DNA from: an uncultured Thermodesulfobacteriota bacterium
GTDB lineage: Bacteria > Desulfobacterota > B13-G15
Assembly: GCA_964543765.1 (NCBI GenBank)
Contig: CAZIZI010000001.1
Location: 170,475-234,474, forward strand
Length of the DNA stretch: 64,000 nt
Direction of reading: 5' to 3'
Below, one piece after another: positions 1 to 42,926 of this stretch. Under the pieces are notes generated by a model. The model did no database searches and was not told the DNA's origin. It worked only from the letters and a program-made list of their open reading frames with translations. The translations under genes were made by a program, and so were the position numbers. Position 1 is the first letter of the stretch. Each line of letters begins with the position of its first letter.

Positions 1-168
1 AAAAGAGCCGGTTTTTCCGTAGCACCAGCGGATGCTTCTCAGGAGGCTCGTGAGATAGCCGATTACGTGACCTCAGTGGGAGGAGGGATGGGTGTGGTGA
101 GGGAGGTGGCGGAGTTTATCCTCAAGGTCCAGGGCAAATGGGAAGAGATAATCGATAAGGTTTTTTGA
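1..168 (+). CDS. KdsC-like HAD phosphatase (3-deoxy-D-manno-octulosonate-8-phosphate phosphatase family), C-terminal fragment; gene begins upstream of window
   Basis: Frame 1 translates to ...SVAPADASQEAREIADYVTSVGGGMGVVREVAEFILKVQGKWEEIIDKVF*, matching the conserved C-terminal GG-G-VRE motif region of KdsC-type HAD phosphatases; stop TGA at 166-168 overlaps next ATG. Confidence 0.45.
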   Translation, partial: KRAGFSVAPADASQEAREIADYVTSVGGGMGVVREVAEFILKVQGKWEEIIDKVF

Positions 169-1379
169 TGCCTAAAAGGCGTACCATCCTATTAGGCGCT
201 TGTTTAGATACAAAAGGGGAAGAGGCGGAGTATCTTTATGAGGTGCTGAAAGATCTTGGTAATGAGGTTCTCGTGATAGATGGTGGCATTAAAGGAGTTC
301 CTTTTTTTGAACCTCATATTAGACGAGAAGAAGTAGCTCGAGCCGCGGGGATTTCTCTTCAGGAGATACAAGGGATACCTCATGAAGGTGAAGTCCTTAT
401 GTTAATGGCTCAAGGAATTCAGAGGATAACAGAAGAGCTAATAAAAGAGAAGAAAATAGAGGGGATGATCGGTTTCGGGGGAAGCATGGGGACTTTGCTC
501 TGGGGAACTGTTATGCAAGGCCTTCCCCTTGGTTTCCCTAAGGTTCTAGTAAGTACCCAAGCTTCAAACCCTGAAGTTATAAAAAGGGTCGTCAGAGGGA
601 AGGACCTTTGTCTCTTTAATAGTCCTGTGGATCTTGCGGGTTTAAACCCTCTTACCAAATCGATCCTTTTGAGGGCGGCTTGGGCCATAAGTGGGATGGT
701 CCAGTGCGAATTTGAGGCGATGGAGGAAAAGACAGTAGCCCTTTGCGCCAAAGGAAACGTAGAAGGCCTTACGGCTTTAGTGAGAAAAAAACTTCTGGAG
801 AGTGGTTTTACACCCATAACCTTCCACGGATGGGGGTACGGTCCTCTGAGCCTTGAAGAGGCAATAAAAGAAGGACTTATTACCGCTGGGGTGATTGAGC
901 TTTCAAATGATTATCTGGAATACCTTTGTGGGGGAACTTCTTATCCTCCGGAAGATAGGTATGAAAATGCCATAAAAAAAGGACTTCCTTTAATTTATGT
1001 CCCAGGTTCTTGCGACATAATTGCAACTTTACCTGAAGACGAAAGATTTAAAGAAAGAAAATATGTAAAACATAATCCTTCTGTTTGGAGTTATAGAACA
1101 ACAAAGGAAGAATTATACGATTTTGCTATCAAAATTGGAGAAAAATTAAAGAATGGAGGGAAAAAAATAACGGTTCTTATACCAGAAAAAGGGTTTTCAA
1201 TATATGATGGTGAGGGAAAGATTTTAGATGATGAAGAAGCACGAAAAGAGTTTATCAAAGGTATAAAAAATTTTGATAAACTAATAACGGTAAAGGTATT
1301 GCCATATCATATTTTAGATGCTAAATTTGCTGAAGAAGTAGTGAATGAATTTTTAAGGCTTTACAAAAGTATGCAATAA
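168..1379 (+). CDS. UPF0261 / Tm-1-like ATP-binding domain protein
   Basis: N-terminus RRTILLGACLDTKGEEAEYLYEVLKDLG matches the UPF0261 consensus (I-G-LDTKGEE); ~400 aa as typical; ATG at 168 (ORF track begins 3 nt earlier at TTG). Confidence 0.65.
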   Translation: MPKRRTILLGACLDTKGEEAEYLYEVLKDLGNEVLVIDGGIKGVPFFEPHIRREEVARAAGISLQEIQGIPHEGEVLMLMAQGIQRITEELIKEKKIEGMIGFGGSMGTLLWGTVMQGLPLGFPKVLVSTQASNPEVIKRVVRGKDLCLFNSPVDLAGLNPLTKSILLRAAWAISGMVQCEFEAMEEKTVALCAKGNVEGLTALVRKKLLESGFTPITFHGWGYGPLSLEEAIKEGLITAGVIELSNDYLEYLCGGTSYPPEDRYENAIKKGLPLIYVPGSCDIIATLPEDERFKERKYVKHNPSVWSYRTTKEELYDFAIKIGEKLKNGGKKITVLIPEKGFSIYDGEGKILDDEEARKEFIKGIKNFDKLITVKVLPYHILDAKFAEEVVNEFLRLYKSMQ

Positions 1380-1383
1380 GGAG

Positions 1384-2838
1384 GTGGAAGAAGTGGCTTA
1401 TAAGTATTTTATCGACAATAGAGAGTATATTAAGGCATTGAGAAAAAGTGGTGATCTTGTTGACATTATGCAAGAAGTTGATTGGGATTTGGAATTGGGT
1501 GCAATTGTAAGAAGAGTATGTGAAAAGAAGGGGCCCGCTCCGTTCTTTCACAAAATAAAGGATTATCCAGAGTTTAGGGCTTTGGGAGCTCCCATAGCTA
1601 CTTGGAGAAGGCTCGCGGTGGTTTTGGGATTGAGTCCTGAGGCTTCTATTCCTGATATTGTTGAAGAGTGGAGGAGAAGGACGAGTGGGCCAGTTTATAA
1701 ACCTGAAATAGTGGATAAGAAGGATGCTCCCTGTAAGGAAATGGTCATTATGGGGGATGAGGTGGATGTGTTTGAGCTTCCTGCTCCTATGGTTCATGAT
1801 GGTGATGGGGGCAGGTATGTTGGGACATGGCATTTTGTGGTGGCCAAAGATGAAGAGACGGGTTTTGTAAACTGGGGGATGTATAGACTTGCCATATTTG
1901 ATGAGAAGACGCTGGTTGGTCCGGTTCTGCCATTTTCCGATATGGGGCGGATCTTTTATCAAAAGTACGAGCCTTTTAACAAACCTATGCCCGTAGCCAT
2001 TGTCATAGGGCCTGACCCATTGAGCGCCTTAGCCAGTTTAGCACCTACCCCTTTACCTGAACCCGAATTTGCCGGTCAGCTTATGGGAGAGCCGGTTAAG
2101 CTTGTTAAGTGCGAGACCTGTGATTTGTATGTTCCAGCTACAGCGGAGATCATTTTAGAAGGAGAACTGCTGCCAAACGTTCGCTTAGAAGAGGCTCCGT
2201 TTGGGGAATATACGGGTTATAGGACAAGCCCCAGGGATAAGAGGAACGTCTATAGGATAAAGGCCATTACCATGAGAAAAGGCGCTATATTGACCGTTTC
2301 TAATATGGGGGTTCCAGTTGATGAAGGGCAGCTGTTAAGGTCCTTTACCTTGGCGATGGATATGGAGCAGCTGCTTAAAAGTCAAGGTTTGCCCGTTACT
2401 GGGGTTTACATGTGGCCAGAGTCCACGCATCACCTTTTGGTAATAGGAGTAAAACCGGTTTATTCCAACATCGCCCAGCAGGTTGGTTCCTTGGTTTTAG
2501 GAAGCAAAGCTGCTCCCTGGTTTCACATAGTGGTAGTTGTGGATGACCAAACGGATGTCTACAGTTTAGATGACGTTATTCATGCCATTTGCACCAAATG
2601 GCATCCTGTAAGGGGTACCATTTTGATGCGCGAAGGGGTAGGGACCCCTCTTAATCCCTTTGCTAGCCCTGAGGAGCGGTTTTCTCAAAGGGCTCCAAAG
2701 GTGATTTTGGATTGTACATTTCCTCTTGATTGGCCTAAACCCCTTGTACCCATAAAGGTAAGTTTTAACAACGTTTATCCCGAAGAAATTAGGAAGAAAG
2801 TTCTTGAAAACTGGAGAGCTTATGGTTTTAAGGATTAA
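1384..2838 (+). CDS. ubiD: UbiD-family (prFMN-dependent) decarboxylase, paralog 1 (full length, 484 aa)
   Basis: GTG start after AAGGAGG RBS; conserved UbiD core GGRYVGTWHFVVAKDEETGFVNWGMYR and EYTGYR; length typical of UbiD/PpcA-type. Confidence 0.85.
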   Translation: MEEVAYKYFIDNREYIKALRKSGDLVDIMQEVDWDLELGAIVRRVCEKKGPAPFFHKIKDYPEFRALGAPIATWRRLAVVLGLSPEASIPDIVEEWRRRTSGPVYKPEIVDKKDAPCKEMVIMGDEVDVFELPAPMVHDGDGGRYVGTWHFVVAKDEETGFVNWGMYRLAIFDEKTLVGPVLPFSDMGRIFYQKYEPFNKPMPVAIVIGPDPLSALASLAPTPLPEPEFAGQLMGEPVKLVKCETCDLYVPATAEIILEGELLPNVRLEEAPFGEYTGYRTSPRDKRNVYRIKAITMRKGAILTVSNMGVPVDEGQLLRSFTLAMDMEQLLKSQGLPVTGVYMWPESTHHLLVIGVKPVYSNIAQQVGSLVLGSKAAPWFHIVVVVDDQTDVYSLDDVIHAICTKWHPVRGTILMREGVGTPLNPFASPEERFSQRAPKVILDCTFPLDWPKPLVPIKVSFNNVYPEEIRKKVLENWRAYGFKD

Positions 2839-2859
2839 CTCAAACAAAGGGGGTTAAAA

Positions 2860-3105
2860 ATGGCTGAATATGATATCTTTATCAATAAGAACTTTGAGGA
2901 CTTAAAGGACGAAGAGGAAATAGTAGGAGTTATAAGGGATCTTAGTCCTGGAAAAAAGAAGTACAAGTGTCTATGCGCCAAATTGATCATCTCGAAGGAT
3001 CCTGATAAATACCCGGATAGACTCTGGGTAAGGCTCGGAAGAGGACAACTCGTTAAGGATCATCCTTGTTCGGTAAAGATAGTGGAGATATTGAAACCTT
3101 ATTGA
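2860..3105 (+). CDS. small (81 aa) hypothetical protein embedded between UbiD paralogs
   Basis: ORF with RBS GGGGG upstream, tightly spaced between ubiD-1 stop and ubiD-2 start (2-nt gap); no recognisable motif. Confidence 0.4.
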   Translation: MAEYDIFINKNFEDLKDEEEIVGVIRDLSPGKKKYKCLCAKLIISKDPDKYPDRLWVRLGRGQLVKDHPCSVKIVEILKPY

Positions 3106-3106
3106 G

Positions 3107-4393
3107 ATGAGGCTTCGGGAATTTTTGAAAACCGCTGAAGAAAAAGCTTTTTTAAAGGAAGTGAAAGAAGAAGTAGAAAGAGAGGAGCTTCCTCAGTTAA
3201 TAGAAGATTTATCGAAGGAAAATAAAATTTTGATTTTCCAAAACGTAAAAGGTTATAAGGCAAAAGTGGTGGCTAATCTTTTACCTACAGAAGAGGTATG
3301 GGAAATCTTTTGGGGCGAAAAGCCTTCAGAGGAGTTTTTGAAAAGAATTGAAAAACGTGGAGAGAAAATAAGTTCGCCACAAAAGATGGATGAATATGAG
3401 GAGATTGAGGTAAAAGAGTTTCTTGAGATTCTTCCGATCCTTCATCATTACGAAGAGGATTCAGCACCTTACATAACTACTGGTGTCGCTTCTTCTTGGG
3501 ATCCTCAAAAAAAGACGGTGGGACGTGGGGTCTATAGGATGGAATATCGAGGCGGGAACGAACTAGGTATAGCTCTTCTGAATCCACCCTTAAAGGACAC
3601 ATTGGAGCTTTATCGGGAAAAGGGAGAAAGTATGCCCATAGTGATCACCATTGGACATCATCCCCTGGTTTTTTTAGCCATGGCCATGAGGATCCATGAA
3701 GGGATCGATAAACTGGAAGTGGCCTCTTCCCTGTTGGGAAAGGGAATAGAAGTGATGCCTTCTTTTTCCTTTCCCCAAATAGACATTCCTTCCGGCTGTG
3801 AGGTAATCCTCGAAGGGCACATTGATCCTAAAGACGAGAGAAAAGATGGCCCCCTTGGAGAGGTAAGTGGGTTCTATCACACGGTCGAAAAAAGTCCTAC
3901 CGTGAGGATAAAGAAGGCTTTTTTGAAAAAACCCTTTTATTACTATCACGCCCTTTTACCCACTGGTTGGGAAGCGGATACCTATCTTACTTTTGTAAGT
4001 AAGGCTTTTTTAGAAAAAAAGCTTAAAGAGAATTTCCCTTTTGTGATTAACATAAGGTTTATAAAAAAGACTTTTGGTTCATCGGTGCTTATTCAGGTTA
4101 AAGAAGTAAAAGAAAGACCGTTAATTACTAATTTAATACTTTTTGTTCTGTCAAATCCAATGATAAAAAAATGTGTAGTAGTGGATGATGATGTTAACTT
4201 ATCGGAATTAGAAGATGTTGAATGGGCTATCATTACACGATGTTGGGCAGATGAGGATGTAATAATTATTTCTTATTCTAAGGCTCAACAAATAGATCCT
4301 GAAGCAAAAAGAGGATACTCTTCAAAAATTGGTATAAATGCAGTTAAGCGAGAGGATATAAAAAGAGCAATTATAAAAAGAAAAAGGAGTTAA
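3107..4393 (+). CDS. UbiD-family decarboxylase, short paralog 2 (428 aa)
   Basis: UbiD N-terminal LREFLKTAEEKAFLKEV, core APYITTGVASSWDP...GRGVYRMEY, EVSGFYH; ends KIGINAVK like paralog 3. Confidence 0.75.
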   Translation: MRLREFLKTAEEKAFLKEVKEEVEREELPQLIEDLSKENKILIFQNVKGYKAKVVANLLPTEEVWEIFWGEKPSEEFLKRIEKRGEKISSPQKMDEYEEIEVKEFLEILPILHHYEEDSAPYITTGVASSWDPQKKTVGRGVYRMEYRGGNELGIALLNPPLKDTLELYREKGESMPIVITIGHHPLVFLAMAMRIHEGIDKLEVASSLLGKGIEVMPSFSFPQIDIPSGCEVILEGHIDPKDERKDGPLGEVSGFYHTVEKSPTVRIKKAFLKKPFYYYHALLPTGWEADTYLTFVSKAFLEKKLKENFPFVINIRFIKKTFGSSVLIQVKEVKERPLITNLILFVLSNPMIKKCVVVDDDVNLSELEDVEWAIITRCWADEDVIIISYSKAQQIDPEAKRGYSSKIGINAVKREDIKRAIIKRKRS

Positions 4394-4395
4394 AT

Positions 4396-5061
4396 ATGAA
4401 ACTTCCAGTTAATAGATTAATCATCGGTATTTCAGGAGCAACAGGTGCAATTTATGGTATTAAACTATTGGAAGTGTTAAAGCGCTTAGGTATTGAAAGT
4501 CACGTTGTAATTACCGATCCTGCAAAAAGAACTATCCTTTATGAAACTGATTATAGTTTAGATCAAGTTAAGTCTTTAGCTACTTATTATTATGATATAA
4601 ATAATATTGGTGCTGCCATTGCAAGTGGTACATTTAAAGTGGATGGAATGGTAGTTATTCCGTGTTCGATAAAAACGCTTTCAGCTATTGTTAACTCTTA
4701 TAATGTTAATTTGTTAATCAGAGCAGCAGATGTAACTTTAAAAGAGAAAAGAAAGTTAATTTTAGTAGTAAGGGAAGCTCCTCTTCACAAAGGGCATTTG
4801 GAGTTGATGATGAAGGCGTGTGATCTGGGGGCGATTATATTACCTCCTATGATGGCTTTTTATTTTAGACCTAAGACGTTGGAGGAAATGATCGATCATT
4901 TGATAGCCAAGGTGTTAGGACTTTTGGGAATTGAGTATTCGAAGTTTCAAGGTTGGGGGATAAAGGAAGGAGAAGAGATAGAGAGGTTGGAGATAAATGA
5001 CGTTGAGAGAGTGGGTAGAGTTCCTCAGAGAAAAAGGGAGGCTTATATCCCTAAAAGATGA
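4396..5061 (+). CDS. ubiX: flavin prenyltransferase UbiX (prFMN synthase)
   Basis: N-terminus RLIIGISGATGAIYGIKLLEVLK is the classic UbiX/Pad1 flavoprotein signature; the last ~20 codons overlap the true N-terminus of the next UbiD gene in another frame. Confidence 0.9.
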   Translation: MKLPVNRLIIGISGATGAIYGIKLLEVLKRLGIESHVVITDPAKRTILYETDYSLDQVKSLATYYYDINNIGAAIASGTFKVDGMVVIPCSIKTLSAIVNSYNVNLLIRAADVTLKEKRKLILVVREAPLHKGHLELMMKACDLGAIILPPMMAFYFRPKTLEEMIDHLIAKVLGLLGIEYSKFQGWGIKEGEEIERLEINDVERVGRVPQRKREAYIPKR

Positions 5062-6378
5062 AATTTCTCCTCAGTGGGAGATTTCGGCAGTCTTAAAGAT
5101 TTTTCAAAAAGGCAGATAAAAAAGGGGGTTCTTTTCGAAAGAATCAAAGGTTATGAGGCTTATCGAATAGTTGGGCACTTATTTTTGGAAGAAGATTATT
5201 TTTTGAGTCCGGAAAGCGGCATTGAAGATATAAGTGATTGGTATGAAAAAAGAAGGGGTAAGCCTATTCCCCCTGTTTTAGTTAAATGGGGACCGGTGAA
5301 AGAGGTGAGAATAAATGGTAAAGGGCTCGAGCTTAAGAAGGAGATTCCGGCTTTAGTTCATCATGAAGAAGATGCAGGCCCTTATCTTACTGCAAGTGTA
5401 GTAATCGCTAAAGATCCAGAAACAGGCCGAAGGGGAATGGGAATACATCGAATCCAGATCGTGGAAGAGAACCGAATAAGGATCTTTATCGCTAACCCTC
5501 CCCTCTCATTGTTCGTAAAAAAAGCTGAAGAACTAAAAAAGCCTTTAGAAATAGCTATCATTAACGGACTTGATCCAATAACGATTTTTTCGGCCATCCT
5601 TCCTTTACCAGAAGAGGATAAACTGGCAATCGCGGATGCCCTCAGAAACAAAACCATTCCATTGGTCGAAGCAGAAATAATAGAGTTACAAATCCCTGCC
5701 GAAGGAGAAATAGCCTTAGAAGGGCTTCTTTATCCTGATAAAAAGGAAATAGACGGTCCCTTTGGTGAAAATACTGGTTATTACTTCACTAATGAAAGCT
5801 ATGTGAGTATTATCAAAACATTAACCCGTAGAAAAGATCCAATTTACCACGTAATACTTCCATTTTCTTCTGAAGTCGAAAACCTTATCAATTTGGCTTG
5901 GGAGGTTGAAGAATTTAAAAAACTTAAAAACAAATTTAATTTTGTGAAAAAAGTAAAATTTTATCAAACCAGAATGTTAGCCGTAATTCAAATACAAAAG
6001 GAAAGTGAGGAACAAGTGTCTTTAATAATTGATTATTTTTTAAATCAACCAATAATCAAAGGAGTTATAGTTGTTGATGAGGATGTGAATGTGAATGATT
6101 TAAACGAAATATTTTGGGCTTTAATGACGAGAGTTAATTTTGAAAAGAGTATCTTTTTAAGAAGAGAAAAACCCGGTTGTCCTATTGATCCTACGGCAAA
6201 GATTTATTATAGAGAAGAATCGCAATTTTACGGACTTTATCCTAAGACTACTAAAATTGGAATTAATGCTACAAAACCCCTCGATGGAAAGGAACGTTTT
6301 AAAAAGGTGGAGGTGCCTCTATCTGTAGCGAAAAGATTAAAAGGAGTGTTAGGAATTGATAGGGGAAATAACTTTTAA
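4997..6378 (+). CDS. UbiD-family decarboxylase, short paralog 3; N-terminus (from ATG 4997) and body (ORF 5074-6378) are in different frames: frameshift or sequencing indel near 5100-5115
   Basis: Frame from 4997 encodes MTLREWVEFLREKGRLISLKDEISPQWEISAVLKIFQKGR*, the canonical UbiD N-terminus; body frame continues KKGVLFERIKGYEAY...DAGPYLTASVVIAKDPETGRRGMGIHR...ENTGYY; switch lies in a tttttcaaaaagg run. Confidence 0.6.
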
Positions 6379-7342
6379 AGCTAACTTTTTGAGCGGCGTT
6401 GGGAAAGGTGCTTTTTTTGTGAATATCGATTGGGTTAAAGAGGGCATTCGTAAAAAATTTGGCTTTTTGCCTTTTCCTGGAACGTTGAATTTAAAGGTTA
6501 AGAAGGAGGATTTTGAAAAATTGCAAAAAATAATCCCGAAAGGCTATGTTTTGATTCCTCCTGCCTCCTCTTTTTGTGTAGCGCGTTTCCTGAAGGGTAA
6601 GGTGGGTGAGGTGGAGGGAGTTTTTGTCTTTCCAGAAGAAAGGGTTTGGCTTCACAGGAACGTATTAGAATTTATTGCTCCTTATAAGGTTAAAGAGAGG
6701 ATGGAATTGAAAGAAGGAGACCAGGTTGAATGCGCTGTGTTTTTTAAATTCACGCCTGACGCAGTAATATTCGACCTTGATGGGGCATTGGTTGATCCAT
6801 CGGAGGCTTATGAGGAGATCTTAAAAATAATAAGCCAAAAGTTTAAATTATTGCCTCCTTCTAAAGAAGAAATAAAAAACCTCATCAAAGGGAGAAAAGA
6901 TCCATGGAGTTTCATTTTTTCAACCTTGGATAAAGAAAAACTCGAAGAAGCAAAAAATTTGGATAAAATGCTTTTACCTCAAATATATCCTAAAAAGACA
7001 AAACTACTGCCTTATGCAGTTGAGCTTATAAAAGAATTAAAGAAGAAAGGAATAAAACTCGCAATATGTACCAATCAATTAGAGTTGAGCAATGAGATAC
7101 ATGAATTGCTTGAAGAAAAGGGAATAAAGGATTTTTTTGATTTGATAATTGTGCGTAGATTGGGTGAATATTTTGATAAAAAAGAAGCAATAAAAATTTG
7201 CTGCGAAAAATTTGGAGTCGATATTTTATTTTCGGTATATGTAACTGATGACAAAAAAGAAGCAGAATTATGTAAAGAAATTGGAATACAATGTATAATT
7301 GTGGAAAATCTGGAAGAAATTGCTCAGATACTTTGGAATTAA
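6356..7342 (+). CDS. CTP-dependent (archaeal-type) riboflavin kinase domain fused to a C-terminal HAD-superfamily phosphatase domain
   Basis: N-terminal SGVGKGAFFVNIDWVKEGIRKKFGFLPFPGTLNLKV matches the MJ0056-type RibK motif (G-G-G...GF-P-GTLN); C-terminal half has HAD motif I FDLDGALVD, motif II Thr (ICTNQ), motif IV VTDD; TTG start with AAAGGAG RBS. Confidence 0.7.
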   Translation: MIGEITFKANFLSGVGKGAFFVNIDWVKEGIRKKFGFLPFPGTLNLKVKKEDFEKLQKIIPKGYVLIPPASSFCVARFLKGKVGEVEGVFVFPEERVWLHRNVLEFIAPYKVKERMELKEGDQVECAVFFKFTPDAVIFDLDGALVDPSEAYEEILKIISQKFKLLPPSKEEIKNLIKGRKDPWSFIFSTLDKEKLEEAKNLDKMLLPQIYPKKTKLLPYAVELIKELKKKGIKLAICTNQLELSNEIHELLEEKGIKDFFDLIIVRRLGEYFDKKEAIKICCEKFGVDILFSVYVTDDKKEAELCKEIGIQCIIVENLEEIAQILWN

Positions 7343-7344
7343 AA

Positions 7345-8343
7345 ATGGACGAAAGGAGTTTAAAGGACAAGCAAATAGAGATTTGTCTCAAAGAAAAAGT
7401 TGAGGATGAAGGTGATAATGGTTTTGATTTTTTTAAATTAGAGTATCAAATTCCAGATTTTTCTTTTGAGGAAATAGATATTTCTTTAGAATTGTTAGGG
7501 AAAAAATTAAGTTTTCCCTTGATTATTGCTCCTTTAACTGGGGGAGGACATAAGTCATTAGAGATCAATAAACGATTAGCTGAAGCTGCCGAGATTATGG
7601 GCATAGGGATGGCTCTTGGTTCTCAGAAGTTAATGGTTAAGTATCCGGAGTTGAAGGTTACGTATTATGTAAGGGATGTGGCTCCTTCCATATTGTTATT
7701 CAGTAACTTGGGCTTAGTGCATCTTAATTATGGAATAGGGTATGATGAGTGTATGTATGTGGTTGAGGAAGTGGGGGCAGATGGTCTTATGTTGTATGTA
7801 AATCCGTTGCAGGAGGTATTTCAAGAGAATGGAATGGTGAATTTTAGTGGAATTTTGAGGAAGTTAGAGGATCTTTGTAAGCGTTTTCCTTATCCTATTG
7901 TGATAAAAGAAATAGGGTATGGGATATCGCGTGATTTCATGTTGAAGTTAAAGGGGGTCGGAATATGGGGTATTGATGTGGCGGGACGAGGGGGTACAAA
8001 TTGGGTAAAGATTGAGTGTTTGCTTAGATCAAAAGAGGTACCCGCAGGTTTTGAAGAAATGGGCGTTTCTACTGCTTTGGCCCTTAAGGAGGCTTCTGAG
8101 ATTATAAAAGATAAAGCGATTTTTGCCTCTGGAGGCATAAGAAAGGGCAGCGAGATAGCTAAAGCCATTGCTTTAGGAGCAAAGGCGGTGAGTATAGGGC
8201 TTCCTTTTCTCAGATGGGCTTCTCAAGGCGTTGAAGCGATACTTAAAGGAGTGGAGACCCTAAAGGAAGAACTGCGATTTTGGATGTGGTATACTGGATC
8301 TAAGGATCTTAAGTCTCTTCAAGGAAAGATAAGGGAAAAATGA
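7345..8343 (+). CDS. fni: type 2 (FMN-dependent) isopentenyl-diphosphate delta-isomerase
   Basis: MDERSLKDKQIEICLK...FPLIIAPLTGGGHKSLEINKRLAEAAEIMGIGMALGSQ aligns with IDI-2 (Fni) N-terminus including the GGG loop; start placed at ATG 7345 right after the previous stop (ORF-track start 7291 overlaps the upstream gene). Confidence 0.85.
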   Translation: MDERSLKDKQIEICLKEKVEDEGDNGFDFFKLEYQIPDFSFEEIDISLELLGKKLSFPLIIAPLTGGGHKSLEINKRLAEAAEIMGIGMALGSQKLMVKYPELKVTYYVRDVAPSILLFSNLGLVHLNYGIGYDECMYVVEEVGADGLMLYVNPLQEVFQENGMVNFSGILRKLEDLCKRFPYPIVIKEIGYGISRDFMLKLKGVGIWGIDVAGRGGTNWVKIECLLRSKEVPAGFEEMGVSTALALKEASEIIKDKAIFASGGIRKGSEIAKAIALGAKAVSIGLPFLRWASQGVEAILKGVETLKEELRFWMWYTGSKDLKSLQGKIREK

Positions 8344-8888
8344 CAATTTACTTCTCCAAAAGAGTATCAGGCGAAGGTTGGATAAGTTTCGAAAGTGATC
8401 CTTATTTGTCTAAAACCAAAAGAAGAATTTATGAAAAATGTTTGCCTTGTCTCGAAGAATTCCTCCAACAGTTAGAAGAAGGAAAACGAGAAATAGATCT
8501 TGGGCCTGCTTATGATTGTTGGAAATTGACTGTTGTCCTTAATGACTTTGAAGAATGTTTGAAATTATTAAATGCCTTTAGCGAATTATATCCTAATGAA
8601 TATGTAATAGGAAAATTTGGAACAGGAACTCTCGAGAAGCCTACTAAAGCCGTGGTTTTTCATGTAGATGAGAAAAAGGCATTAAAAGGATTAGTAAAAA
8701 AAGTACGGGAAACATTACGGAAACTAAATTTGTCTTCTAGCATAAAGATTACGCGAGGTTGTTCTAATCCTTATGAATATCTTTTTGGTCCTTCCAAAAA
8801 ATGGAGAAGGACAATTAATCCTCTTTATCCTGAGAGAATTCCTGAAGTGATAAGAAGAGTAAGGAGGATGATCTATTTTTCGAGCTAA
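8340..8888 (+). CDS. hypothetical protein (182 aa), translationally coupled to fni
   Basis: ATGA overlap with fni stop; no recognisable family motif. Confidence 0.4.
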   Translation: MTIYFSKRVSGEGWISFESDPYLSKTKRRIYEKCLPCLEEFLQQLEEGKREIDLGPAYDCWKLTVVLNDFEECLKLLNAFSELYPNEYVIGKFGTGTLEKPTKAVVFHVDEKKALKGLVKKVRETLRKLNLSSSIKITRGCSNPYEYLFGPSKKWRRTINPLYPERIPEVIRRVRRMIYFSS

Positions 8889-9466
8889 AAAATCCTCGGT
8901 TCTTGTCCAACGATTAGGCGTTTAATGTTTGAAAAGTGGCGGATAATTATAAAAGAGGAAAGGAGGAGGGTCAAAGAAAAAAGAGATGGCGGTTCTACTT
9001 TTAATAGATAAAGAAAACAAGGTATACTTAAAGCTCCCGAGATGGAACCCAAAGAAACCTTTCTAGTGATAAGAAGGACAATCATAAAAATCCCCAAGCT
9101 TAAAACCAAAGGAAGTGGGGTAATTACCAAGTATAACCCGGTAGCAGTGGCTACGCCTTTTCCCCCTTTAAATTTAAGAAAAAGCGGAAAAAGATGACCG
9201 AAAAAGGCAGAAAGCCCAAACAAAAACCCCCATTCAGGTCCGTAAAGGCTTTTACCCACAAAGGCTGGTACACCCCCCTTGAGGAGGTCGCTTATTAAAG
9301 TCAAAAGGCCCATAGTTTTACCGGCGGTTCTCATCACATTTGTAGCTCCTATATTTCCGCTTCCCCCTTTTCGGGGATCTACGCCTTTCATTTTGGCGAA
9401 TAAGAGACCGAAAGGGATTGATCCCAAAAGGTAAAAGGAAAAAAGGAAAAATACCCGCCACCCCAT
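8885..9466 (-). CDS. plsY: glycerol-3-phosphate acyltransferase PlsY
   Basis: MGWRVFFLFSFYLLGSIPFGLLFAKMKGVDPRKGGSGNIGATNVMRTAGK is the PlsY signature. Confidence 0.9.
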   Translation of the reverse strand: MGWRVFFLFSFYLLGSIPFGLLFAKMKGVDPRKGGSGNIGATNVMRTAGKTMGLLTLISDLLKGGVPAFVGKSLYGPEWGFLFGLSAFFGHLFPLFLKFKGGKGVATATGLYLVITPLPLVLSLGIFMIVLLITRKVSLGSISGALSIPCFLYLLKVEPPSLFSLTLLLSSFIIIRHFSNIKRLIVGQEPRIF

Positions 9467-9479
9467 TTTTACCTATTAA

Positions 9480-9556
9480 TGGTCGGGATGACTGGATTTG
9501 AACCAGCGACCCCCGCGTCCCGAACGCGGTGCTCTACCAGGCTGAGCCACATCCCG
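9480..9556 (-). tRNA. tRNA-Pro (anticodon CGG), CCA encoded
   Basis: Reverse complement reads CGGGATGTGGCTCAGCCTGGTAGAGCACCGCGTTCGGGACGCGGGGGTCGCTGGTTCAAATCCAGTCATCCCGACCA; 7-bp acceptor stem CGGGATG/CATCCCG, D-arm GCTC...GAGC, anticodon loop TTCGGGA (CGG), T-arm GGTTCAAATCC; very similar to E. coli tRNA-Pro. Confidence 0.85.
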
Positions 9557-10537: not shown

Positions 10538-11464
10538 ATGGAGAGGTTTCTGAACAAAAAGTGTCCATTCCTTGGGGAGGAGAAAGTGCTTATTTGTAGG
10601 GCATTTCCTCTTAAAAAGCCCATTCCCCTGGATAAAGTTTATGCCCAGGAGAACTTTTGCCTAAAAGGCAATTACCAGAAATGTCCCGTATATCAAGAGG
10701 TGGCAAAAGAAAAGGAGAAAAGCCCTCATGGAGTATGTCCCTTTGTGGAAGTTGAAAACGTGAGTTTTTGTAAGCTGTTTCCGGCTAAGAAACTCTCTGT
10801 TTCGGGTGTTTATGAGCTCGGAAACCCTTGTACTACTGAGAGGCATCAAGAGTGCATTCTGTTTCTTACAGTTAGTAAAGGTGATCTAAGTTTATCAACG
10901 GAAGGAAGGCCTTATGTGGATTCTAACCGTCAATATCTAAAGGGACATTTTTGGATCAAAGAGGAAAGTGAAGGATTTAAAGTAGGCCTTGATGATTTCG
11001 CCCAGTTTTTGCTCGGTTCCATAAAAAGAATCACTTTACCTCCGGAAGGAACCATCCTGAAAATAGGAGAAGAGTTTTTAACGCTTGAAACCGAAAAAGG
11101 CACTTTTCAATTGCTTTCCCCTTTGGAGGGCGAAGTACGAAGACTCAACCTTGAACTTCTCGAGCATCCTGGCCTTTTAAATGAAGAACCCTATGGGAAG
11201 GGTTGGATTTTGATCATGAAAATTTCTGGTATTCCACTTACTTTAATGTCCCCTGAAGAAGCGAAGCAAGAGCTTTCCCATAAGTTACAATGGCTTTCGA
11301 GGTTCTTGGGTTCGGAAGACACAATGGCAGATGGAGGGGAGATAACATTCGAAAGCCTTAAAACATTAGATCGTGAAAAACAGAGGGTTTTGATCGAGGA
11401 ATTGCTTTTAAAAGAAATTAGGAAGGAGGTAAAGGATGGAGCTTTATCAGTATCAATGGGTTGA
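10538..11464 (+). CDS. GcvH-like (lipoyl-carrier-type) domain protein with N-terminal duplicated 4-Cys motif
   Basis: C-terminal GHFWIKEESEGFKVGLDDFAQFLLG...LETEKGTFQLLSPLEGEV mirrors GcvH (GITDFAQ..LG; ESVKA...SPVSGEV) with the Lys retained; N-terminal has two ~45-aa repeats CPF..(9-10)..C..(19)..C..(7)..C. Confidence 0.6.
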   Translation: MERFLNKKCPFLGEEKVLICRAFPLKKPIPLDKVYAQENFCLKGNYQKCPVYQEVAKEKEKSPHGVCPFVEVENVSFCKLFPAKKLSVSGVYELGNPCTTERHQECILFLTVSKGDLSLSTEGRPYVDSNRQYLKGHFWIKEESEGFKVGLDDFAQFLLGSIKRITLPPEGTILKIGEEFLTLETEKGTFQLLSPLEGEVRRLNLELLEHPGLLNEEPYGKGWILIMKISGIPLTLMSPEEAKQELSHKLQWLSRFLGSEDTMADGGEITFESLKTLDREKQRVLIEELLLKEIRKEVKDGALSVSMG

Positions 11465-12134
11465 TTTCTTCGCCACCAAGGGTCTCAAGTATCTGTTGAT
11501 CTTGGGCTTTTGGCTTGCCCTTTTCCCCTTCTGGAGGCTCCTTATGGGACCAGTTGGCAGAGTTTCCCTTCTTGTTTCCAGGGCCATAGAGGCGCTTTAT
11601 GGATGGTTCAACTTCCCCCAGACTCTTTACTACCATCAGGGTCACACTTGGGCAAAGGTGGAGGATGGTTTGGTAAAGGTGGGGCTTGATGACTTCGCTC
11701 AGAAGCTTTTGGGAAGGCCCGATGCCATAGAACTTCCCCTTATCGGAGGAAAGGTCAGACAAGGCGATATAGGTTGGAGGATAAGGATAGAGGAGAAGAT
11801 CTTAGAGATGCTTTCTCCGGTAAGTGGAGAGGTTTTGGCCATAAACAAGAAGGTCCTTGAGGATCCAAGTCTAATCCTTAAGGATCCCTATGGAGAGGGA
11901 TGGCTTTTGAAGATTAAGCCCGATAACCCTAAGGTTGACCTTCGGAACCTCCTTAAGGGTGAGGCCTTGAAGGGATGGATCCAAGGGACCCTTGATAGGT
12001 TAAGGGAGAGGCTTGGGGGAGAGCTTGGGCTTATGTATCAAGACGGTGGTCTTCCGGTGAACGGATTTGTCCGAATGATAGATCCCCAAAACTGGGACCA
12101 AATAGCAAGGGAATTCTTAATACCTGAGGGATAA
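11436..12134 (+). CDS. membrane-anchored GcvH-like (lipoyl-carrier-type) domain protein
   Basis: N-terminal TM helix LKYLLILGFWLALFPFW; then HQGHTWAKVEDGLVKVGLDDFAQKLLG...IEEKILEMLSPVSGEV (GcvH fold signature, Lys retained). Confidence 0.6.
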   Translation: MELYQYQWVDFFATKGLKYLLILGFWLALFPFWRLLMGPVGRVSLLVSRAIEALYGWFNFPQTLYYHQGHTWAKVEDGLVKVGLDDFAQKLLGRPDAIELPLIGGKVRQGDIGWRIRIEEKILEMLSPVSGEVLAINKKVLEDPSLILKDPYGEGWLLKIKPDNPKVDLRNLLKGEALKGWIQGTLDRLRERLGGELGLMYQDGGLPVNGFVRMIDPQNWDQIAREFLIPEG

Positions 12135-12283
12135 AGGCAAAAACGAGATGTCTCCTCGTTATTACCAAAGGGAAGGTTTCGGTTTTAAACTAAGTGTTTT
12201 CTTAAGTTATCAAGAAACTTGTGCAAATTTTCACTTATGCTAAATTCTCTATATGGAAGGCTATTAAGGCATGGGAGGGGGTT

Positions 12284-13126
12284 ATGAACAGAAGGGACTT
12301 TTTAAAAGCTTTAGGGATAGGGTTAATAAGCATTGGTGTTCGGCCTATTTTGGGTAGAGCGGAGAACGAAGAGTTTACGGAGTTTATGGGAATCCTGGTG
12401 GATACAACTCGGTGTATAGGATGTAGGGCTTGTGAAGCGGCTTGTGCCGAGAGTCACGGCCTTCCCGTTCTTGATATAAATGATACCAGCGTGTTTAAAA
12501 CCCCAAGAAAACCTTCTACCCAGCAACTGACAGTGGTCAATCGTTTTGAAACGGAAAAGGGAGAGGTATTTGTCAAAACCCAATGCATGCATTGTAATCA
12601 ACCCGCTTGTGTGGCAGCTTGTTTGGTTAAGGCTTTTAAAAAACAACCGAGTGGCCCTGTTACCTGGGATAAAAACTGCATAGGTTGTAGGTTTTGCATG
12701 TACAGTTGTCCATTTGACGTTCCAAAATTTGAATATGAAAAGGCCATTCCAGAAATAAAGAAATGTGACCTCTGTTGGGATCGTTTAAAGAAGGGTATGA
12801 TTCCCGCTTGTGTAGAAGCCTGTCCCCAGGAGGCTTTGATATTTGGTAAAAGAAGGGATCTTATCCATGAAGCAAAAACAAGAATTTATAAGGATCCCGA
12901 CAGATATTATCACCATATTTACGGTGAAAATGAAGTGGGGGGCACATCTTATTTATATCTTTCTAAAGTGCCTTTTGAACAAATTGGATTCCGTACCGAT
13001 TTGGGTTATACCCCTTACCCTGAATATGCAAAGATATTCATAGAAAGTGACGATCTCGTGTACATATTATGGCCCGTTGGCATGTGGTTGGTATATGAAC
13101 TCACTAAAAAAGGAGGTAGCCAATGA
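12284..13126 (+). CDS. Tat-exported 4x[4Fe-4S] ferredoxin-type subunit (HybA/HmcB/DsrO/PsrB-like)
   Basis: Twin-arginine signal MNRRDFLKALGIGLISIGVRPILGRA; four Cys clusters (CIGCRACEAAC, CMHCNQPACVAAC, CIGCRFCMYSCP, CDLCWDR...CVEACP); start ATG 12284 after GGGGG. Confidence 0.8.
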   Translation: MNRRDFLKALGIGLISIGVRPILGRAENEEFTEFMGILVDTTRCIGCRACEAACAESHGLPVLDINDTSVFKTPRKPSTQQLTVVNRFETEKGEVFVKTQCMHCNQPACVAACLVKAFKKQPSGPVTWDKNCIGCRFCMYSCPFDVPKFEYEKAIPEIKKCDLCWDRLKKGMIPACVEACPQEALIFGKRRDLIHEAKTRIYKDPDRYYHHIYGENEVGGTSYLYLSKVPFEQIGFRTDLGYTPYPEYAKIFIESDDLVYILWPVGMWLVYELTKKGGSQ

Positions 13127-13204
13127 GCCAGAGAAGGAAAGAAGTAATAAGCTTTATATTTATCCGAACTTAAACCCAAAGGCCCGATCTTTACCCCATT
13201 TAAT

Positions 13205-37345: not shown

Positions 37346-37349
37346 CCTT

Positions 37350-39635: not shown

Positions 39636-39636
39636 T

Positions 39637-42853: not shown

Positions 42854-42926
42854 AGAAATCCAGAAGCGCATTTACCCTGAAGAGGAGGTGGTAGTAAGAT
42901 GAACCGGCCACAGACGAAGGGAAACA

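What the first reader, a model, noticed from the sequence alone, without database searches (positions are those of the whole stretch)
168..8888. Self-contained prFMN module: three UbiD paralogs, UbiX, riboflavin kinase and type-2 IPP isomerase in one gene string
Three UbiD-family (de)carboxylase genes of 484, 428 and ~460 aa, a small 81-aa ORF and UbiX sit in one co-directional array with the enzymes that make both UbiX substrates. A riboflavin kinase supplies FMN, and an FMN-dependent IDI-2 supplies DMAPP/DMAP precursor. The layout (two or more UbiD-like subunits, a small subunit, a HAD-type phosphatase domain) recalls phenylphosphate carboxylase, in which two UbiD-like subunits pair with a HAD-like subunit and a ~10-kDa subunit. 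The substrate is unknown. A UbiD/UbiX cluster carrying its own cofactor-precursor supply genes is, to my knowledge, uncommon. The UPF0261 gene immediately upstream may belong to the same unit.
Basis: partly seen in the sequence, partly recalled or inferred. Interest (0 to 1): 0.75.

Follow-up and report, generated by a model that had tools for sequence, protein, structure and literature searches.

The report
Anaerobic phenol carboxylase operon with cofactor-supply genes
The flagged genes are the second half of a well-known bacterial operon for breaking down phenol without oxygen (phenylphosphate carboxylase), here carrying an unusually full set of helper genes that probably make its prenylated-flavin cofactor, plus a kinase gene that may offer a cheaper way to activate phenol.

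Summary
The genes are real and sit at the stated coordinates. They are not a stand-alone "prFMN module" with an unknown substrate. The window starts inside an 18-gene operon. On the same contig from other assemblies (99.9% identical), the genes just upstream are phenylphosphate synthase PpsAB, a benzoate-CoA-ligase-family enzyme, LysR, PpcB and two PpcD.

In the window:
- The 484-aa UbiD is PpcA (TIGR02723 above cut-off, 56% identical to Thauera aromatica PpcA).
- The 81-aa ORF is PpcC.
- The other two UbiDs are "PpcX"-type accessory paralogs. The second carries an N-terminal frameshift.

Across 59 independent ppc loci, PpcX, UbiX and a CTP-type riboflavin kinase are the rule, even in Thauera. 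The kinase is partnered by either a Nudix or a HAD hydrolase, never both. IDI-2 recurs in 6 loci. So cofactor supply inside ppc clusters is common. This lineage has the fullest version, with a RibK-HAD fusion and IDI-2.

Three unreported leads came out of this:
- The embedded UPF0261 gene is a homologue of MarK, an ADP-forming phenolic kinase.
- All PpcX proteins have lost the canonical UbiD Mn2+ ligands (N→G, His lost, E→K).
- A conserved five-cysteine 182-aa protein has no known fold relative.

Verdict: a new variant of a known system, of moderate interest.

The parts
1..164 (+). 3' end of the second ppcD-like gene (phenylphosphate carboxylase delta-type, KdsC/Hydrolase_3 HAD phosphatase). 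The gene is cut by the window edge.
   Evidence: The frame-1 translation is 84% identical to the C-terminus of L001 PpcD2. Its best NCBIfam hit is TIGR02726 phenyl_P_delta, positions 115-168. The full 186-aa gene is seen in L088/L089.
168..1379 (+). UPF0261 protein, a MarK-like candidate ATP-dependent phenolic (phenol?) kinase
   Evidence: Pfam UPF0261 N and C domains score 152 and 138 bits. It is 31% identical to MarK (PDB 9MPY, E = 4e-45). It keeps the equivalents of MarK D14-T15-K16, G195, H219 and H304; H348 is Tyr. MarK activity is reported in PMC12624787. UPF0261 genes occur in 12 of 59 ppc loci.
1384..2838 (+). PpcA, phenylphosphate carboxylase alpha subunit (UbiD family, likely the prFMN/Mn2+ site)
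   Evidence: TIGR02723 scores 624 bits against a cut-off of 564.6. It is 56% identical to Thauera aromatica PpcA. The Fdc1 N168/R173/E233/E277/E282 equivalents are kept and H191 is Asp.
2860..3105 (+). PpcC, phenylphosphate carboxylase gamma subunit (81 aa)
   Evidence: Pfam PF09662 scores 47.7 bits against a threshold of 25. NCBIfam TIGR02725 is the top hit but below its cut-off, 46 against 135.55. A homologue follows PpcA in 56 of 59 ppc loci.
3107..4393 (+). PpcX1, the UbiD-like accessory paralog orthologous in position to the 'PpcX' of other ppc clusters
   Evidence: UbiD Pfam domains are present. It groups with the delta-type PpcX clade. Its signature is G for N168, NPPL with no His, K for E233, with R173 and D/E277-E282 kept.
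4396..5061 (+). UbiX/PpcY flavin prenyltransferase (makes prFMNH2 from FMNH2 and DMAP)
   Evidence: TIGR00421 scores 243 against 108.9 and NF004685 scores 243 against 188. UbiX is present in 51 of 59 ppc loci.
4997..6378 (+). PpcX2, a second lineage-specific PpcX-type UbiD paralog, frameshifted. The ancestral ATG is at 4997, a 1-nt deletion lies near 5106, and the open frame runs 5074-6378 (434 aa).
   Evidence: Searches show the deletion relative to L002, shared with L088/L089. The gene is intact at 459 aa in L093/L094. It has the same loss of metal ligands as PpcX1. The best PDB match is HmfF 6H6V.
6356..7342 (+). Fusion of a CTP-type riboflavin kinase domain (about 6356-6745) with a HAD-IA phosphatase domain (about 6749-7342)
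   Evidence: PF01982 scores 86 bits and HAD_2 scores 72 bits. The closest solved structure is MJ0056 riboflavin kinase. HAD motifs DLDGA, T and TDD are intact. RibK occurs in 39 of 59 ppc loci, with either Nudix (19) or HAD (10) partners and never both.
7291..8343 (+). Type-2 (FMN-dependent) isopentenyl-diphosphate isomerase. The true start is probably the ATG at 7345, just after the RibK-HAD stop.
   Evidence: TIGR02151 scores 319 against 281.3, with the match starting at residue 25. Orthologues are called at 335 aa. IDI-2 genes above cut-off are present in five other ppc loci.
8340..8888 (+). U182, a conserved 182-aa protein of unknown function with five invariant cysteines. It is the last gene of the operon.

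Best explanation
Window 1-8888 is the distal two-thirds of one operon for anaerobic phenol degradation.

Shown by homology and conserved context:
- Phenol is phosphorylated to phenylphosphate by PpsAB, encoded just upstream of the window.
- Phenylphosphate is carboxylated to 4-hydroxybenzoate by the four-subunit phenylphosphate carboxylase. PpcB and two PpcD are upstream; PpcA and PpcC are in the window.
- 4-hydroxybenzoate is then activated by the upstream CoA ligase.

Inferred:
- The genes after ppcC supply and handle the prenylated-FMN cofactor that UbiD-family carboxylases need.
- The riboflavin-kinase domain makes FMN from riboflavin.
- IDI-2 shifts IPP to DMAPP.
- The fused HAD phosphatase removes the terminal phosphate to give DMAP. 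This is the job a Nudix hydrolase appears to do in Thauera-type clusters.
- UbiX joins FMNH2 and DMAP to give prFMNH2.
- The PpcX paralogs keep the Arg/Glu/Glu catalytic and maturation triad but have replaced the Mn2+ ligands (a Lys stands where the metal-binding Glu was). They most likely bind, mature or deliver prFMN rather than act as a second carboxylase.
- The UPF0261 gene between ppcD and ppcA is a MarK-like kinase. It may phosphorylate phenol with ATP to give ADP, alongside PpsAB, which gives AMP + Pi.
- U182 is unassigned.
For: Identity of the system:
- PpcA is above the TIGR02723 cut-off, PpcC is above the Pfam threshold, UbiX and IDI-2 are above their cut-offs.
- The window fragment 1-162 matches PpcD.
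- The same contig in L088/L089 (99.9% nt identity) shows YaaH-like, PpsA, PpsB, CoA ligase, LysR, PpcB and PpcD x2 directly upstream.
- The orthologous upstream genes in L001 pass TIGR02724 (580 against 469), NF006153 (808 against 578) and TIGR02262 (440 against 375).
- The window PpcA is 56% identical to Thauera aromatica PpcA, and the core gene order is shared: PpsAB(C)-PpcB-D-A-C-UbiD-like-UbiX-RibK.

Cofactor module:
- In 59 independent ppc loci, PpcX is in 50, UbiX in 51 and RibK in 39. Nudix is in 19 and HAD in 10, never together. IDI-2 is in 6.
- Nudix hydrolases are reported to make DMAP from DMAPP for prFMN in E. coli (PMC12359138).
- The HAD catalytic motifs are intact.

PpcX:
- The loss of metal ligands is uniform in 60 locus sequences and 120 database homologues.
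- Dedicated prFMN chaperones and maturases exist in other UbiD systems: LpdD (PMC10865409) and PhdC (PMC13040415).

UPF0261:
- The MarK active-site residues are kept.
- MarK is an ADP-forming kinase for phenolic hydroxyl groups (PMC12624787).
- The family recurs in 12 ppc loci, in varied positions.
Against: - No biochemical data exist for this organism; every function is assigned by homology and context.
- PpcB, PpcD and PpsAB are not in the window itself.
- PpcD and PpcC score below the NCBIfam equivalog cut-offs.
- The RibK domain is below the NCBIfam equivalog cut-offs (61 against 168), so it is a divergent member.
- The HAD (and Nudix) partner could act on flavin substrates instead. Candidates are FAD to FMN, FMN hydrolysis, or the ARPP phosphatase step of riboflavin synthesis.
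- PpcX has been proposed by others to be a 4-hydroxybenzoate decarboxylase (PMC5946492). It keeps the catalytic triad, and a conserved Asn in the NPP motif might still bind a metal.
- PpcX2 is frameshifted in this strain.
- PpsAB co-occur with UPF0261 in every locus where the upstream region is visible, so the kinase is not a replacement. MarK prefers ketone- or aldehyde-substituted phenolics, and its ketone-binding His348 is Tyr here.
- Substrate-pocket residues differ among the ppc-linked UPF0261 proteins.
Confidence: 0.85

Rival explanations
1. The three UbiD paralogs, the 81-aa protein and the HAD domain of the riboflavin-kinase fusion together form a new heteromeric carboxylase for an unknown aromatic substrate, analogous to phenylphosphate carboxylase but distinct from it.
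For: Several UbiD paralogs plus a gamma-like small subunit are clustered. Multi-UbiD carboxylase clusters do exist, for example L064, L079 and L090.
Against: Genuine PpcB and two PpcD genes lie immediately upstream on the same contig. PpcA passes the PpcA equivalog model. The extra UbiDs form their own PpcX clade and lack the metal ligands. The fused HAD is of the HAD_2 type, not the KdsC type, and is swapped for a Nudix in other ppc clusters.
Confidence: 0.05
2. The cluster acts on a different phenolic or aniline-type substrate (aniline via phenylphosphoamidate, cresol, hydroquinone or catechol), not phenol.
For: Ppc-beta paralogs of Desulfatiglans anilini carboxylate phenylphosphoamidate (PMC7500099). 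The embedded MarK-like kinase and the doubled PpcD suggest some substrate flexibility. PpcA is only 56% identical to the characterised Thauera enzyme.
Against: The aniline system lacks gamma and delta subunits, whereas all four subunit types plus PpsAB are present here. PpcA and PpcB are above the equivalog cut-offs. The gene order matches that of phenol degraders.
Confidence: 0.1
3. PpcX1/PpcX2 with UbiX form an independent reversible 4-hydroxybenzoate decarboxylase / phenol carboxylase, as others have speculated for PpcX/PpcY. The riboflavin kinase, HAD and IDI-2 are simply general flavin and isoprenoid housekeeping genes that happen to be adjacent.
For: The speculation is published (PMC5946492). 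PpcX keeps the R173/E277/E282 equivalents. The closest solved relative is a true decarboxylase, HmfF.
Against: All three canonical Mn2+ ligands are replaced across the whole PpcX family. No VdcD/ShdD-type small subunit is present. RibK, Nudix/HAD and IDI-2 recur with ppc genes in unrelated phyla and in different positions, which is not expected for housekeeping genes. Thauera and other Proteobacteria normally also carry a bifunctional RibF (general knowledge), so the extra RibK would be pathway-specific.
Confidence: 0.2
4. PpcX2 with UbiX and IDI-2 is a fragment of an archaeal-type mevalonate pathway (anhydromevalonate-phosphate decarboxylase, a UbiD enzyme), not part of the phenol system.
For: A UbiD, UbiX and IDI-2 are adjacent. 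From general knowledge, the archaeal mevalonate pathway uses a UbiD-family decarboxylase and IDI-2.
Against: No mevalonate kinase, phosphomevalonate dehydratase, HMG-CoA enzymes or IP kinase lie in the locus or in relatives. PpcX-family proteins sit in ppc clusters, including those of Betaproteobacteria. IDI-2 also occurs in ppc loci that have only one PpcX.
Confidence: 0.03

Closest known systems
Phenol gene cluster of Thauera aromatica / Aromatoleum (ppsABC-ppcBDAC-ppcX-ppcY plus downstream ORFs)
   Same: The same four carboxylase subunit families, the same PpsAB and the same core order PpcB-D-A-C-UbiD-like-UbiX-RibK. PpcA is 56% identical.
   Different: This operon has no PpsC. It has two PpcD copies and a UPF0261 (MarK-like) gene inserted between ppcD and ppcA. 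It has a second PpcX, which is frameshifted. The riboflavin kinase is fused to a HAD phosphatase instead of being followed by a Nudix hydrolase. It adds IDI-2 and U182, lacks a PNPOx/PhdC-like gene, and has a LysR regulator rather than a sigma-54 XylR-type regulator.
UbiD/UbiX prFMN system with accessory proteins (LpdD chaperone, PhdC/YclD maturase)
   Same: A UbiD-family enzyme is encoded with UbiX and extra proteins that are likely needed to load or mature prFMN (PMC10865409, PMC13040415).
   Different: No LpdD or PhdC homologue is in the window. The candidate helper here is itself a UbiD paralog (PpcX) with its metal ligands replaced. The precursor-supply enzymes (RibK, HAD, IDI-2) are also encoded in the operon.
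MarK (Saro_1862) of Novosphingobium aromaticivorans, a UPF0261 aromatic kinase (PDB 9MPY)
   Same: The same two-domain UPF0261 architecture and 31% identity. The ATP-site D-T-K, the phenolic-oxygen ligands G195/H219 and the stacking residue H304 are conserved.
   Different: MarK works with a biotin-dependent carboxylase pathway for acetovanillone, whereas this protein sits inside a phenylphosphate carboxylase operon. His348, which binds the substrate ketone in MarK, is Tyr here. Activity on phenol is untested.
Plant AtFMN/FHy bifunctional riboflavin kinase / FMN hydrolase (recalled from memory, not tested here)
   Same: It is a fusion of a riboflavin kinase with a HAD-superfamily phosphatase domain.
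   Different: The plant kinase is the eukaryotic ATP-dependent type and its HAD domain is N-terminal. Here the kinase is the archaeal CTP type (PF01982) and the HAD domain is C-terminal. The context (UbiX, IDI-2, Nudix alternation) points to DMAPP rather than FMN as the HAD substrate.

Membership tests
Phenylphosphate carboxylase (PpcABCD) system | Alpha subunit: a UbiD-family protein matching the PpcA equivalog model | tested here: met
   TIGR02723 scores 624.2 bits against a cut-off of 564.6. It is 56% identical to Thauera aromatica PpcA.
Phenylphosphate carboxylase (PpcABCD) system | Gamma subunit: a ~10-kDa protein encoded next to alpha | tested here: met
   Pfam PF09662 scores 47.7 bits against 25. 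The stricter NCBIfam TIGR02725 is the only hit but is below its cut-off, 46.3 against 135.55.
Phenylphosphate carboxylase (PpcABCD) system | Beta subunit: a second UbiD-family protein (PpcB) in the same cluster | tested here: met
   It is not in the window. It is on the same contig (L088/L089, 99.9% nt identity) about 2.6 kb upstream of the window start. Its 94%-identical orthologue in L001 scores 580.4 on TIGR02724 against a cut-off of 468.95.
Phenylphosphate carboxylase (PpcABCD) system | Delta subunit: a KdsC-like HAD phosphatase of ~18 kDa | tested here: inconclusive
   Two tandem Hydrolase_3 genes (185 and 186 aa) lie upstream, and the end of the second is window 1-164. TIGR02726 is the top hit for both and for the window fragment but is below its cut-off (109-125 against 282), with KdsC models scoring close behind.
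Phenylphosphate carboxylase (PpcABCD) system | Linked phenylphosphate synthase genes (PpsA/PpsB) | tested here: met
   PEP-utilizers (619 aa) and PPDK_N (356 aa) genes are in the same operon. The L001 orthologue scores 808 on NF006153 against 578. They are 39-41% identical to the Thauera PpsA/B region.
Phenylphosphate carboxylase (PpcABCD) system | Catalysis: phenylphosphate + CO2 gives 4-hydroxybenzoate + Pi, dependent on Mn2+ and K+ | not testable with these tools
   This needs enzyme assays.
UbiD family of prFMN-dependent (de)carboxylases | UbiD N, Rift-related and C domains | tested here: met
   PF01977 and PF20696 are found in all three paralogs. PF20695 is strong in PpcA, weak in PpcX1, and absent in PpcX2 because of the N-terminal frameshift.
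UbiD family of prFMN-dependent (de)carboxylases | Mn2+/phosphate ligands equivalent to A. niger Fdc1 N168, H191 and E233 | tested here: not met
   PpcA has N163, D186 and E226, so the set is kept with His replaced by Asp. PpcX1 and PpcX2 have Gly, an NPPL segment with no His, and Lys. The same pattern holds in 60 PpcX sequences from loci and in 120 database homologues. Residue numbering of Fdc1 is from memory and was checked against residue identities in the HMMER alignments.
UbiD family of prFMN-dependent (de)carboxylases | Catalytic and maturation triad equivalent to Fdc1 R173/E277/E282 | tested here: met
   The pattern R ... E/D-x4-E is conserved in PpcA, PpcX1 and PpcX2.
   PRK10922 scores 153, 108 and 109 against a cut-off of 788. 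TIGR03701 scores 213, 140 and 154 against 495.9.
UbiX flavin prenyltransferase | Match to the UbiX subfamily models | tested here: met
   TIGR00421 scores 243.1 against 108.9 and NF004685 scores 243.3 against 188.
CTP-dependent riboflavin kinase (archaeal RibK, PF01982) | Full-length match to the family model | tested here: inconclusive
   Pfam PF01982 scores 86.4 bits against 25 over positions 2-120 of 121, and the protein matches MJ0056 structures at E = 1e-11. However, the NCBIfam equivalogs are below their cut-offs: ribK_Meth scores 61 against 168. Nucleotide and substrate specificity are untested.
Type-2 IPP isomerase | Match to the equivalog model TIGR02151 | tested here: met
   It scores 319.1 against 281.3. 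IDI-2 genes in five other ppc loci score 328-398.
MarK-type UPF0261 aromatic kinase | ATP-site D-T-K and the phenolic-oxygen binding residues G195/H219 with stacking H304 | tested here: met
   All are conserved in the window protein, and H348 is Tyr. The residues are as listed in PMC12624787.
MarK-type UPF0261 aromatic kinase | ATP-dependent phosphorylation of a phenolic hydroxyl with ADP as product | not testable with these tools
   This needs an enzyme assay with phenol and ATP.

The most novel reading that the evidence does not exclude
In strictly anaerobic phenol degraders, the ppc operon may encode two functions not yet described.
1. A MarK-like UPF0261 kinase that makes phenylphosphate from phenol with ATP giving ADP. 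This would halve the ATP cost of phenol activation relative to PpsAB, which gives AMP + Pi.
2. PpcX, a UbiD paralog that has swapped its Mn2+ site for a lysine. It would act as a dedicated metal-independent prFMN carrier or maturase for the carboxylase, fed by an in-operon DMAP and FMN supply line (IDI-2, HAD or Nudix, RibK, UbiX).
Probability: 0.25. Interest if true: 0.75.

Novelty: new variant of a known kind. Interest (0 to 1): 0.5.

Why it matters
Phenylphosphate carboxylase is the textbook entry reaction of anaerobic phenol degradation. Three things about it remain unresolved:
- How strict anaerobes afford the ATP cost of activating phenol.
- Where the DMAP for prFMN comes from in vivo.
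- How prFMN is matured and loaded without oxygen.

This operon and its 59 relatives give concrete candidate genes for each: the UPF0261 kinase, the RibK-HAD or RibK+Nudix pair with IDI-2, and the metal-ligand-less PpcX family together with U182. If confirmed, they would help in reconstituting active UbiD-type carboxylases in heterologous hosts, which is a known bottleneck for CO2-fixing biocatalysis. They would also revise the energy budget of anaerobic phenol metabolism.

Tried and rejected
- **Exact look-up of the 484-aa PpcA.** It found nothing because gene callers start it 3 codons later. Look-ups via U182 and the 403-aa UPF0261 succeeded.
- **Organism name.** Its relatives are Syntrophorhabdaceae and Thermodesulfobacteriota-type metagenome-assembled genomes (MAGs).
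- **Metagenome scan with UPF0261.** It returned only two close relatives from the same lineage, so it could not test whether a whole UPF0261 clade is specific to ppc clusters.
- **Promoter and terminator scan.** It found nothing above the shuffled expectation.
- **Schuhle & Fuchs 2004 (PMC438602).** The paper is not held, so statements about the original Thauera ORF descriptions and about the Ppc mechanism rest on memory.
- **Literature searches.** Searches linking phenylphosphate carboxylase with riboflavin kinase, Nudix, DUF120 or UPF0261 found no paper.
- **Benzene or naphthalene carboxylase (AbcA-type).** Rejected. Those relatives are 48% identical or less and lack PpcB, PpcD and Pps neighbours.
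- **Archaeal mevalonate AMPD reading of PpcX2.** Rejected for lack of any other pathway gene.
- **XDH-family Mo enzyme at 35-40 kb.** Considered as 4-hydroxybenzoyl-CoA reductase, but it is far below the Hcr cut-offs, so it is left as a passing note.

Full report
**What is in the sequence.**
Between 165 and 8888 the + strand carries nine tightly packed ORFs. Profile searches identify them as follows.
- A UPF0261 protein, 165/168-1379.
- A 484-aa UbiD, 1384-2838.
- An 81-aa Phenyl_P_gamma protein, 2860-3105.
- A 428-aa UbiD, 3107-4393.
- UbiX, 4396-5061.
- A 434-aa UbiD, 5074-6378.
- A CTP-type riboflavin kinase fused to a HAD_2 phosphatase, 6356-7342.
- A type-2 IPP isomerase, 7291-8343. The likely true start is 7345.
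- A 182-aa protein with no family match, 8340-8888.

PlsY on the opposite strand (8885-9466) and a tRNA-Pro (9480-9556) end the array.

Two corrections are needed. First, the third UbiD is frameshifted. Relative to the intact 459-aa orthologue, one base is missing in an A-run near 5106. The first 38 codons (ATG at 4997) are therefore in another frame. The same lesion is in two independent assemblies of this organism, while sister lineages keep the gene intact. Second, window 1-164 encodes the C-terminus of a PpcD-like protein, so the window opens in the middle of a larger unit.

**What the unit is.**
The 484-aa protein scores 624 bits on the PpcA equivalog model TIGR02723, whose cut-off is 564.6. 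Close relatives on longer contigs (L001/L002, 94% identical PpcA) show an extended co-directional array upstream of UPF0261. It contains a PpsA-like and a PpsB-like gene, a benzoate-CoA-ligase-family gene, LysR, PpcB (TIGR02724, 580 against 469) and two PpcD-like genes.

Exact-sequence look-ups then recovered the very contig of the window (L088/L089, 99.9% nucleotide identity). Its order is YaaH-like channel, PpsA, PpsB, CoA ligase, LysR, PpcB, PpcD, PpcD, UPF0261, PpcA, PpcC, UbiD-like, UbiX, UbiD-like, RibK-HAD, IDI-2, U182.

This is the gene set of the anaerobic phenol pathway: phenol to phenylphosphate to 4-hydroxybenzoate to 4-hydroxybenzoyl-CoA. The pathway is assigned by homology to the Thauera system, and the Thauera biochemistry is recalled from Schuhle & Fuchs 2004, which I could not open. 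None of the three UbiD paralogs approaches the ubiquinone-UbiD or MqnL models.

**Comparison across genomes.**
A scan of species-representative genomes with a PpcA alignment returned 80 loci. They include Thauera aromatica, several Aromatoleum, Sulfuritalea, Syntrophorhabdus, Desulfosarcina and Thermincola. I annotated all loci by BLASTP with the operon's proteins plus Thauera's extra ORFs.

Fifty-nine independent loci are true ppc clusters, meaning PpcA is at least 54% identical and PpcB or PpcD is present. Counts among them are below. Many loci are cut by contig ends, so these are lower bounds.

| Gene | Loci (of 59) |
|---|---|
| PpcC | 56 |
| UbiD-like "PpcX" | 50 |
| UbiX ("PpcY") | 51 |
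| PF01982 riboflavin-kinase gene | 39 |
| Nudix hydrolase | 19 |
| HAD_2 hydrolase (4 fused to RibK) | 10 |
| Nudix and HAD together | 0 |
| IDI-2 | 6 |
| UPF0261 | 12 |
| U182 | 8 |
| PNPOx-like split-barrel protein | 20 |

In Thauera aromatica itself, the order after ppcC is UbiD-like, UbiX, DUF120/RibK, Nudix, PaaK-like ligase. The IDI-2 genes of the five other ppc loci all pass TIGR02151. Loci where PpcA identity is 48% or less are different multi-UbiD carboxylase clusters without PpcB, PpcD or Pps.

It is a general property of ppc clusters, not a rarity. This lineage has the most complete version.

**The cofactor line (inferred).**
UbiX needs FMNH2 and DMAP. The riboflavin-kinase domain matches Pfam at 86 bits and the MJ0056 structures. 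It would raise FMN.

IDI-2 would raise DMAPP.

The Nudix/HAD alternation suggests both enzymes do one job. The job for which Nudix enzymes are already reported in prFMN biosynthesis is DMAPP to DMAP (E. coli NudJ/B/F; PMC12359138, citing Wang 2018). The HAD domain here keeps its catalytic Asp-x-Asp, Thr and Asp-Asp motifs. From memory, the HAD phosphatase domain of soluble epoxide hydrolase is reported to hydrolyse isoprenoid phosphates, and the epoxide-hydrolase-N-terminal-like model is among the weak NCBIfam hits.

Rival substrates cannot be excluded. They are FAD, FMN, or the ARPP intermediate of riboflavin synthesis.

I found no paper linking phenylphosphate carboxylase with riboflavin kinase, Nudix or DUF120.

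**The extra UbiD paralogs.**
In a neighbour-joining tree, the extra UbiDs of all ppc loci form one group apart from PpcA and PpcB. The window's 428-aa protein falls in the delta-type PpcX clade. The 434-aa protein belongs to a small separate branch.

I mapped residues through HMMER alignments to Fdc1, HudA, HmfF, VdcC and E. coli UbiD.
- PpcA keeps the equivalents of Fdc1 N168, R173, E233, E277 and E282. It has Asp for H191.
- Every PpcX has Gly or Ala for N168 and an [N/T/S]PP[L/I/V] segment with no His.
- Every PpcX also has an invariant Asp-Lys where the metal-binding Glu sits.
- R173 and the E/D-x4-E pair are retained in PpcX.
- This holds for 60 locus sequences and for the 120 best database homologues.
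- PpcB also lacks the His and mostly the Glu.

PpcX-like proteins also occur next to PpcA-like/PpcC-like genes in non-phenol carboxylase clusters, and sometimes alone. The literature names PpcX and PpcY and speculates that they are 4-hydroxybenzoate decarboxylases (PMC5946492).

Dedicated prFMN helpers exist elsewhere: the LpdD chaperone (PMC10865409) and the PhdC maturase (PMC13040415). PhdC is a split-barrel flavin-reductase relative, so it may be what the PNPOx-like genes of other ppc loci are. This operon has no PNPOx-like gene.

I therefore favour, at about 30%, a role for PpcX in binding, maturing or delivering prFMN without Mn2+. The decarboxylase reading stays open at about 20%.

**The UPF0261 gene.**
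It lies between ppcD and ppcA, so it is certainly part of the operon. The only UPF0261 enzyme with a known activity is MarK of Novosphingobium. It is an ATP-to-ADP kinase that phosphorylates the phenolic hydroxyl of lignin-derived aromatics (PMC12624787; PDB 9MPY).

The window protein is 31% identical to MarK. It conserves D-T-K at the ATP site, the Gly and His that bind the phenolic oxygen, and the stacking His. The His that binds the substrate's ketone is Tyr here.

UPF0261 genes occur in 12 of 59 ppc loci, in different positions and in at least three pocket variants, and in none of the 21 non-ppc UbiD loci.

An ADP-forming phenol kinase would halve the cost of phenol activation relative to PpsAB. 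That would matter for energy-limited anaerobes. However, PpsAB are present in every such locus where the upstream region is visible, and MarK prefers carbonyl-substituted phenolics. I put this at about 35%.

**U182.**

**Verdict.**
The finding is a real and coherent unit, but it is a member of a well-known system, the phenylphosphate carboxylase operon. What is new is the variant architecture (RibK-HAD fusion, IDI-2, embedded MarK-like kinase, second PpcX, U182) and three family-wide observations that I could not find in the searched literature.

Confidence in the core identification is 0.85. The sub-mechanisms are inferences with individual probabilities of 0.3-0.6.

Noticed in passing
window 4997-5110: The second PpcX gene has a 1-nt deletion in an A-run (near 5106) relative to intact 459-aa orthologues. 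The deletion is shared by two other assemblies of the same organism. The gene may be a recent pseudogene, or it may be expressed from the internal GTG at 5074 without its first ~36 residues.
   Followed up: yes
window 1-8888: GC and third-position GC fall along the operon. The ppcD fragment has GC 0.53 and PpcA 0.455. UbiX, PpcX2, RibK-HAD and U182 have GC 0.34-0.36 and GC3 0.25-0.31, against a window mean of 0.44. The accessory genes also diverge faster between sister lineages (RibK-HAD 59-67% aa identity against 93-94% for PpcA). This hints at a mosaic origin or weaker constraint.
   Followed up: partly
window 35006-40131 (- strand): A three-subunit xanthine-dehydrogenase-family molybdoenzyme: a 2Fe-2S subunit of 164 aa, a MoCo subunit of 761 aa, and a 779-aa FAD subunit with an inserted GltD-like NAD(P)H/Fe-S module. 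4-Hydroxybenzoyl-CoA reductase models are among the hits but far below cut-off (344 against 995). It is a possible divergent downstream enzyme of the phenol pathway. Unresolved.
   Followed up: partly
L078:13702-14792 (Thauera aromatica LG356): The model organism's phenol cluster carries a DUF120/CTP-type riboflavin kinase gene and a NudC-like Nudix gene with an N-terminal zinc ribbon directly after UbiX. I found no paper in the searched library that discusses them as prFMN-supply genes.
   Followed up: partly
ppc loci L001-L078 (alignment): PpcB, the beta subunit, also lacks the His (replaced by Arg or Lys) and usually the Glu of the canonical UbiD metal site. In these operons only PpcA has a full set of potential ligands (N/D/E). 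This suggests one cofactor site per alpha-beta pair.
   Followed up: partly
L023:11789-15900 (Thermincola MAG) and L064 (Thermodesulfobacteriota MAG): Thermincola has three tandem PpcX paralogs, followed by IDI-2 and a PNPOx-like gene. L064 has ten or more UbiD-like ORFs within 16 kb, a PAH- or benzene-carboxylase-like cluster, and it includes a PpcX-type member.
   Followed up: no
L092:10001-16142: This is a ppc cluster with no UbiX in the locus. PpcX is followed by RibK, a PaaK-like ligase and a PNPOx-like gene. A riboflavin-biosynthesis RibBA gene lies nearby on the opposite strand.
   Followed up: no
window 26374-28203: A 609-aa ORF combines an HMGL-like (homocitrate/isopropylmalate-synthase-type) catalytic domain with a C-terminal Cache/PDC sensor domain. 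This is an unusual pairing.
   Followed up: no
window 10538-14320: Two tandem GcvH-like genes with long N-terminal extensions (308 and 232 aa) are followed by HmcB-like and HmcC-like genes. Both of the latter are below their equivalog cut-offs.
   Followed up: no
window 40225-43907: Pieces of a type I restriction-modification system lie here: ResIII helicase (420 aa), an EcoEI_R_C fragment (204 aa) and HsdM (326 aa). The hsdR gene looks split.
   Followed up: no
L088:1167-1754: A Gpr1/Fun34/YaaH-family (acetate/succinate channel-like) gene is the first gene of the operon, just before PpsA. It is a candidate uptake protein for phenol or a related substrate.
   Followed up: no
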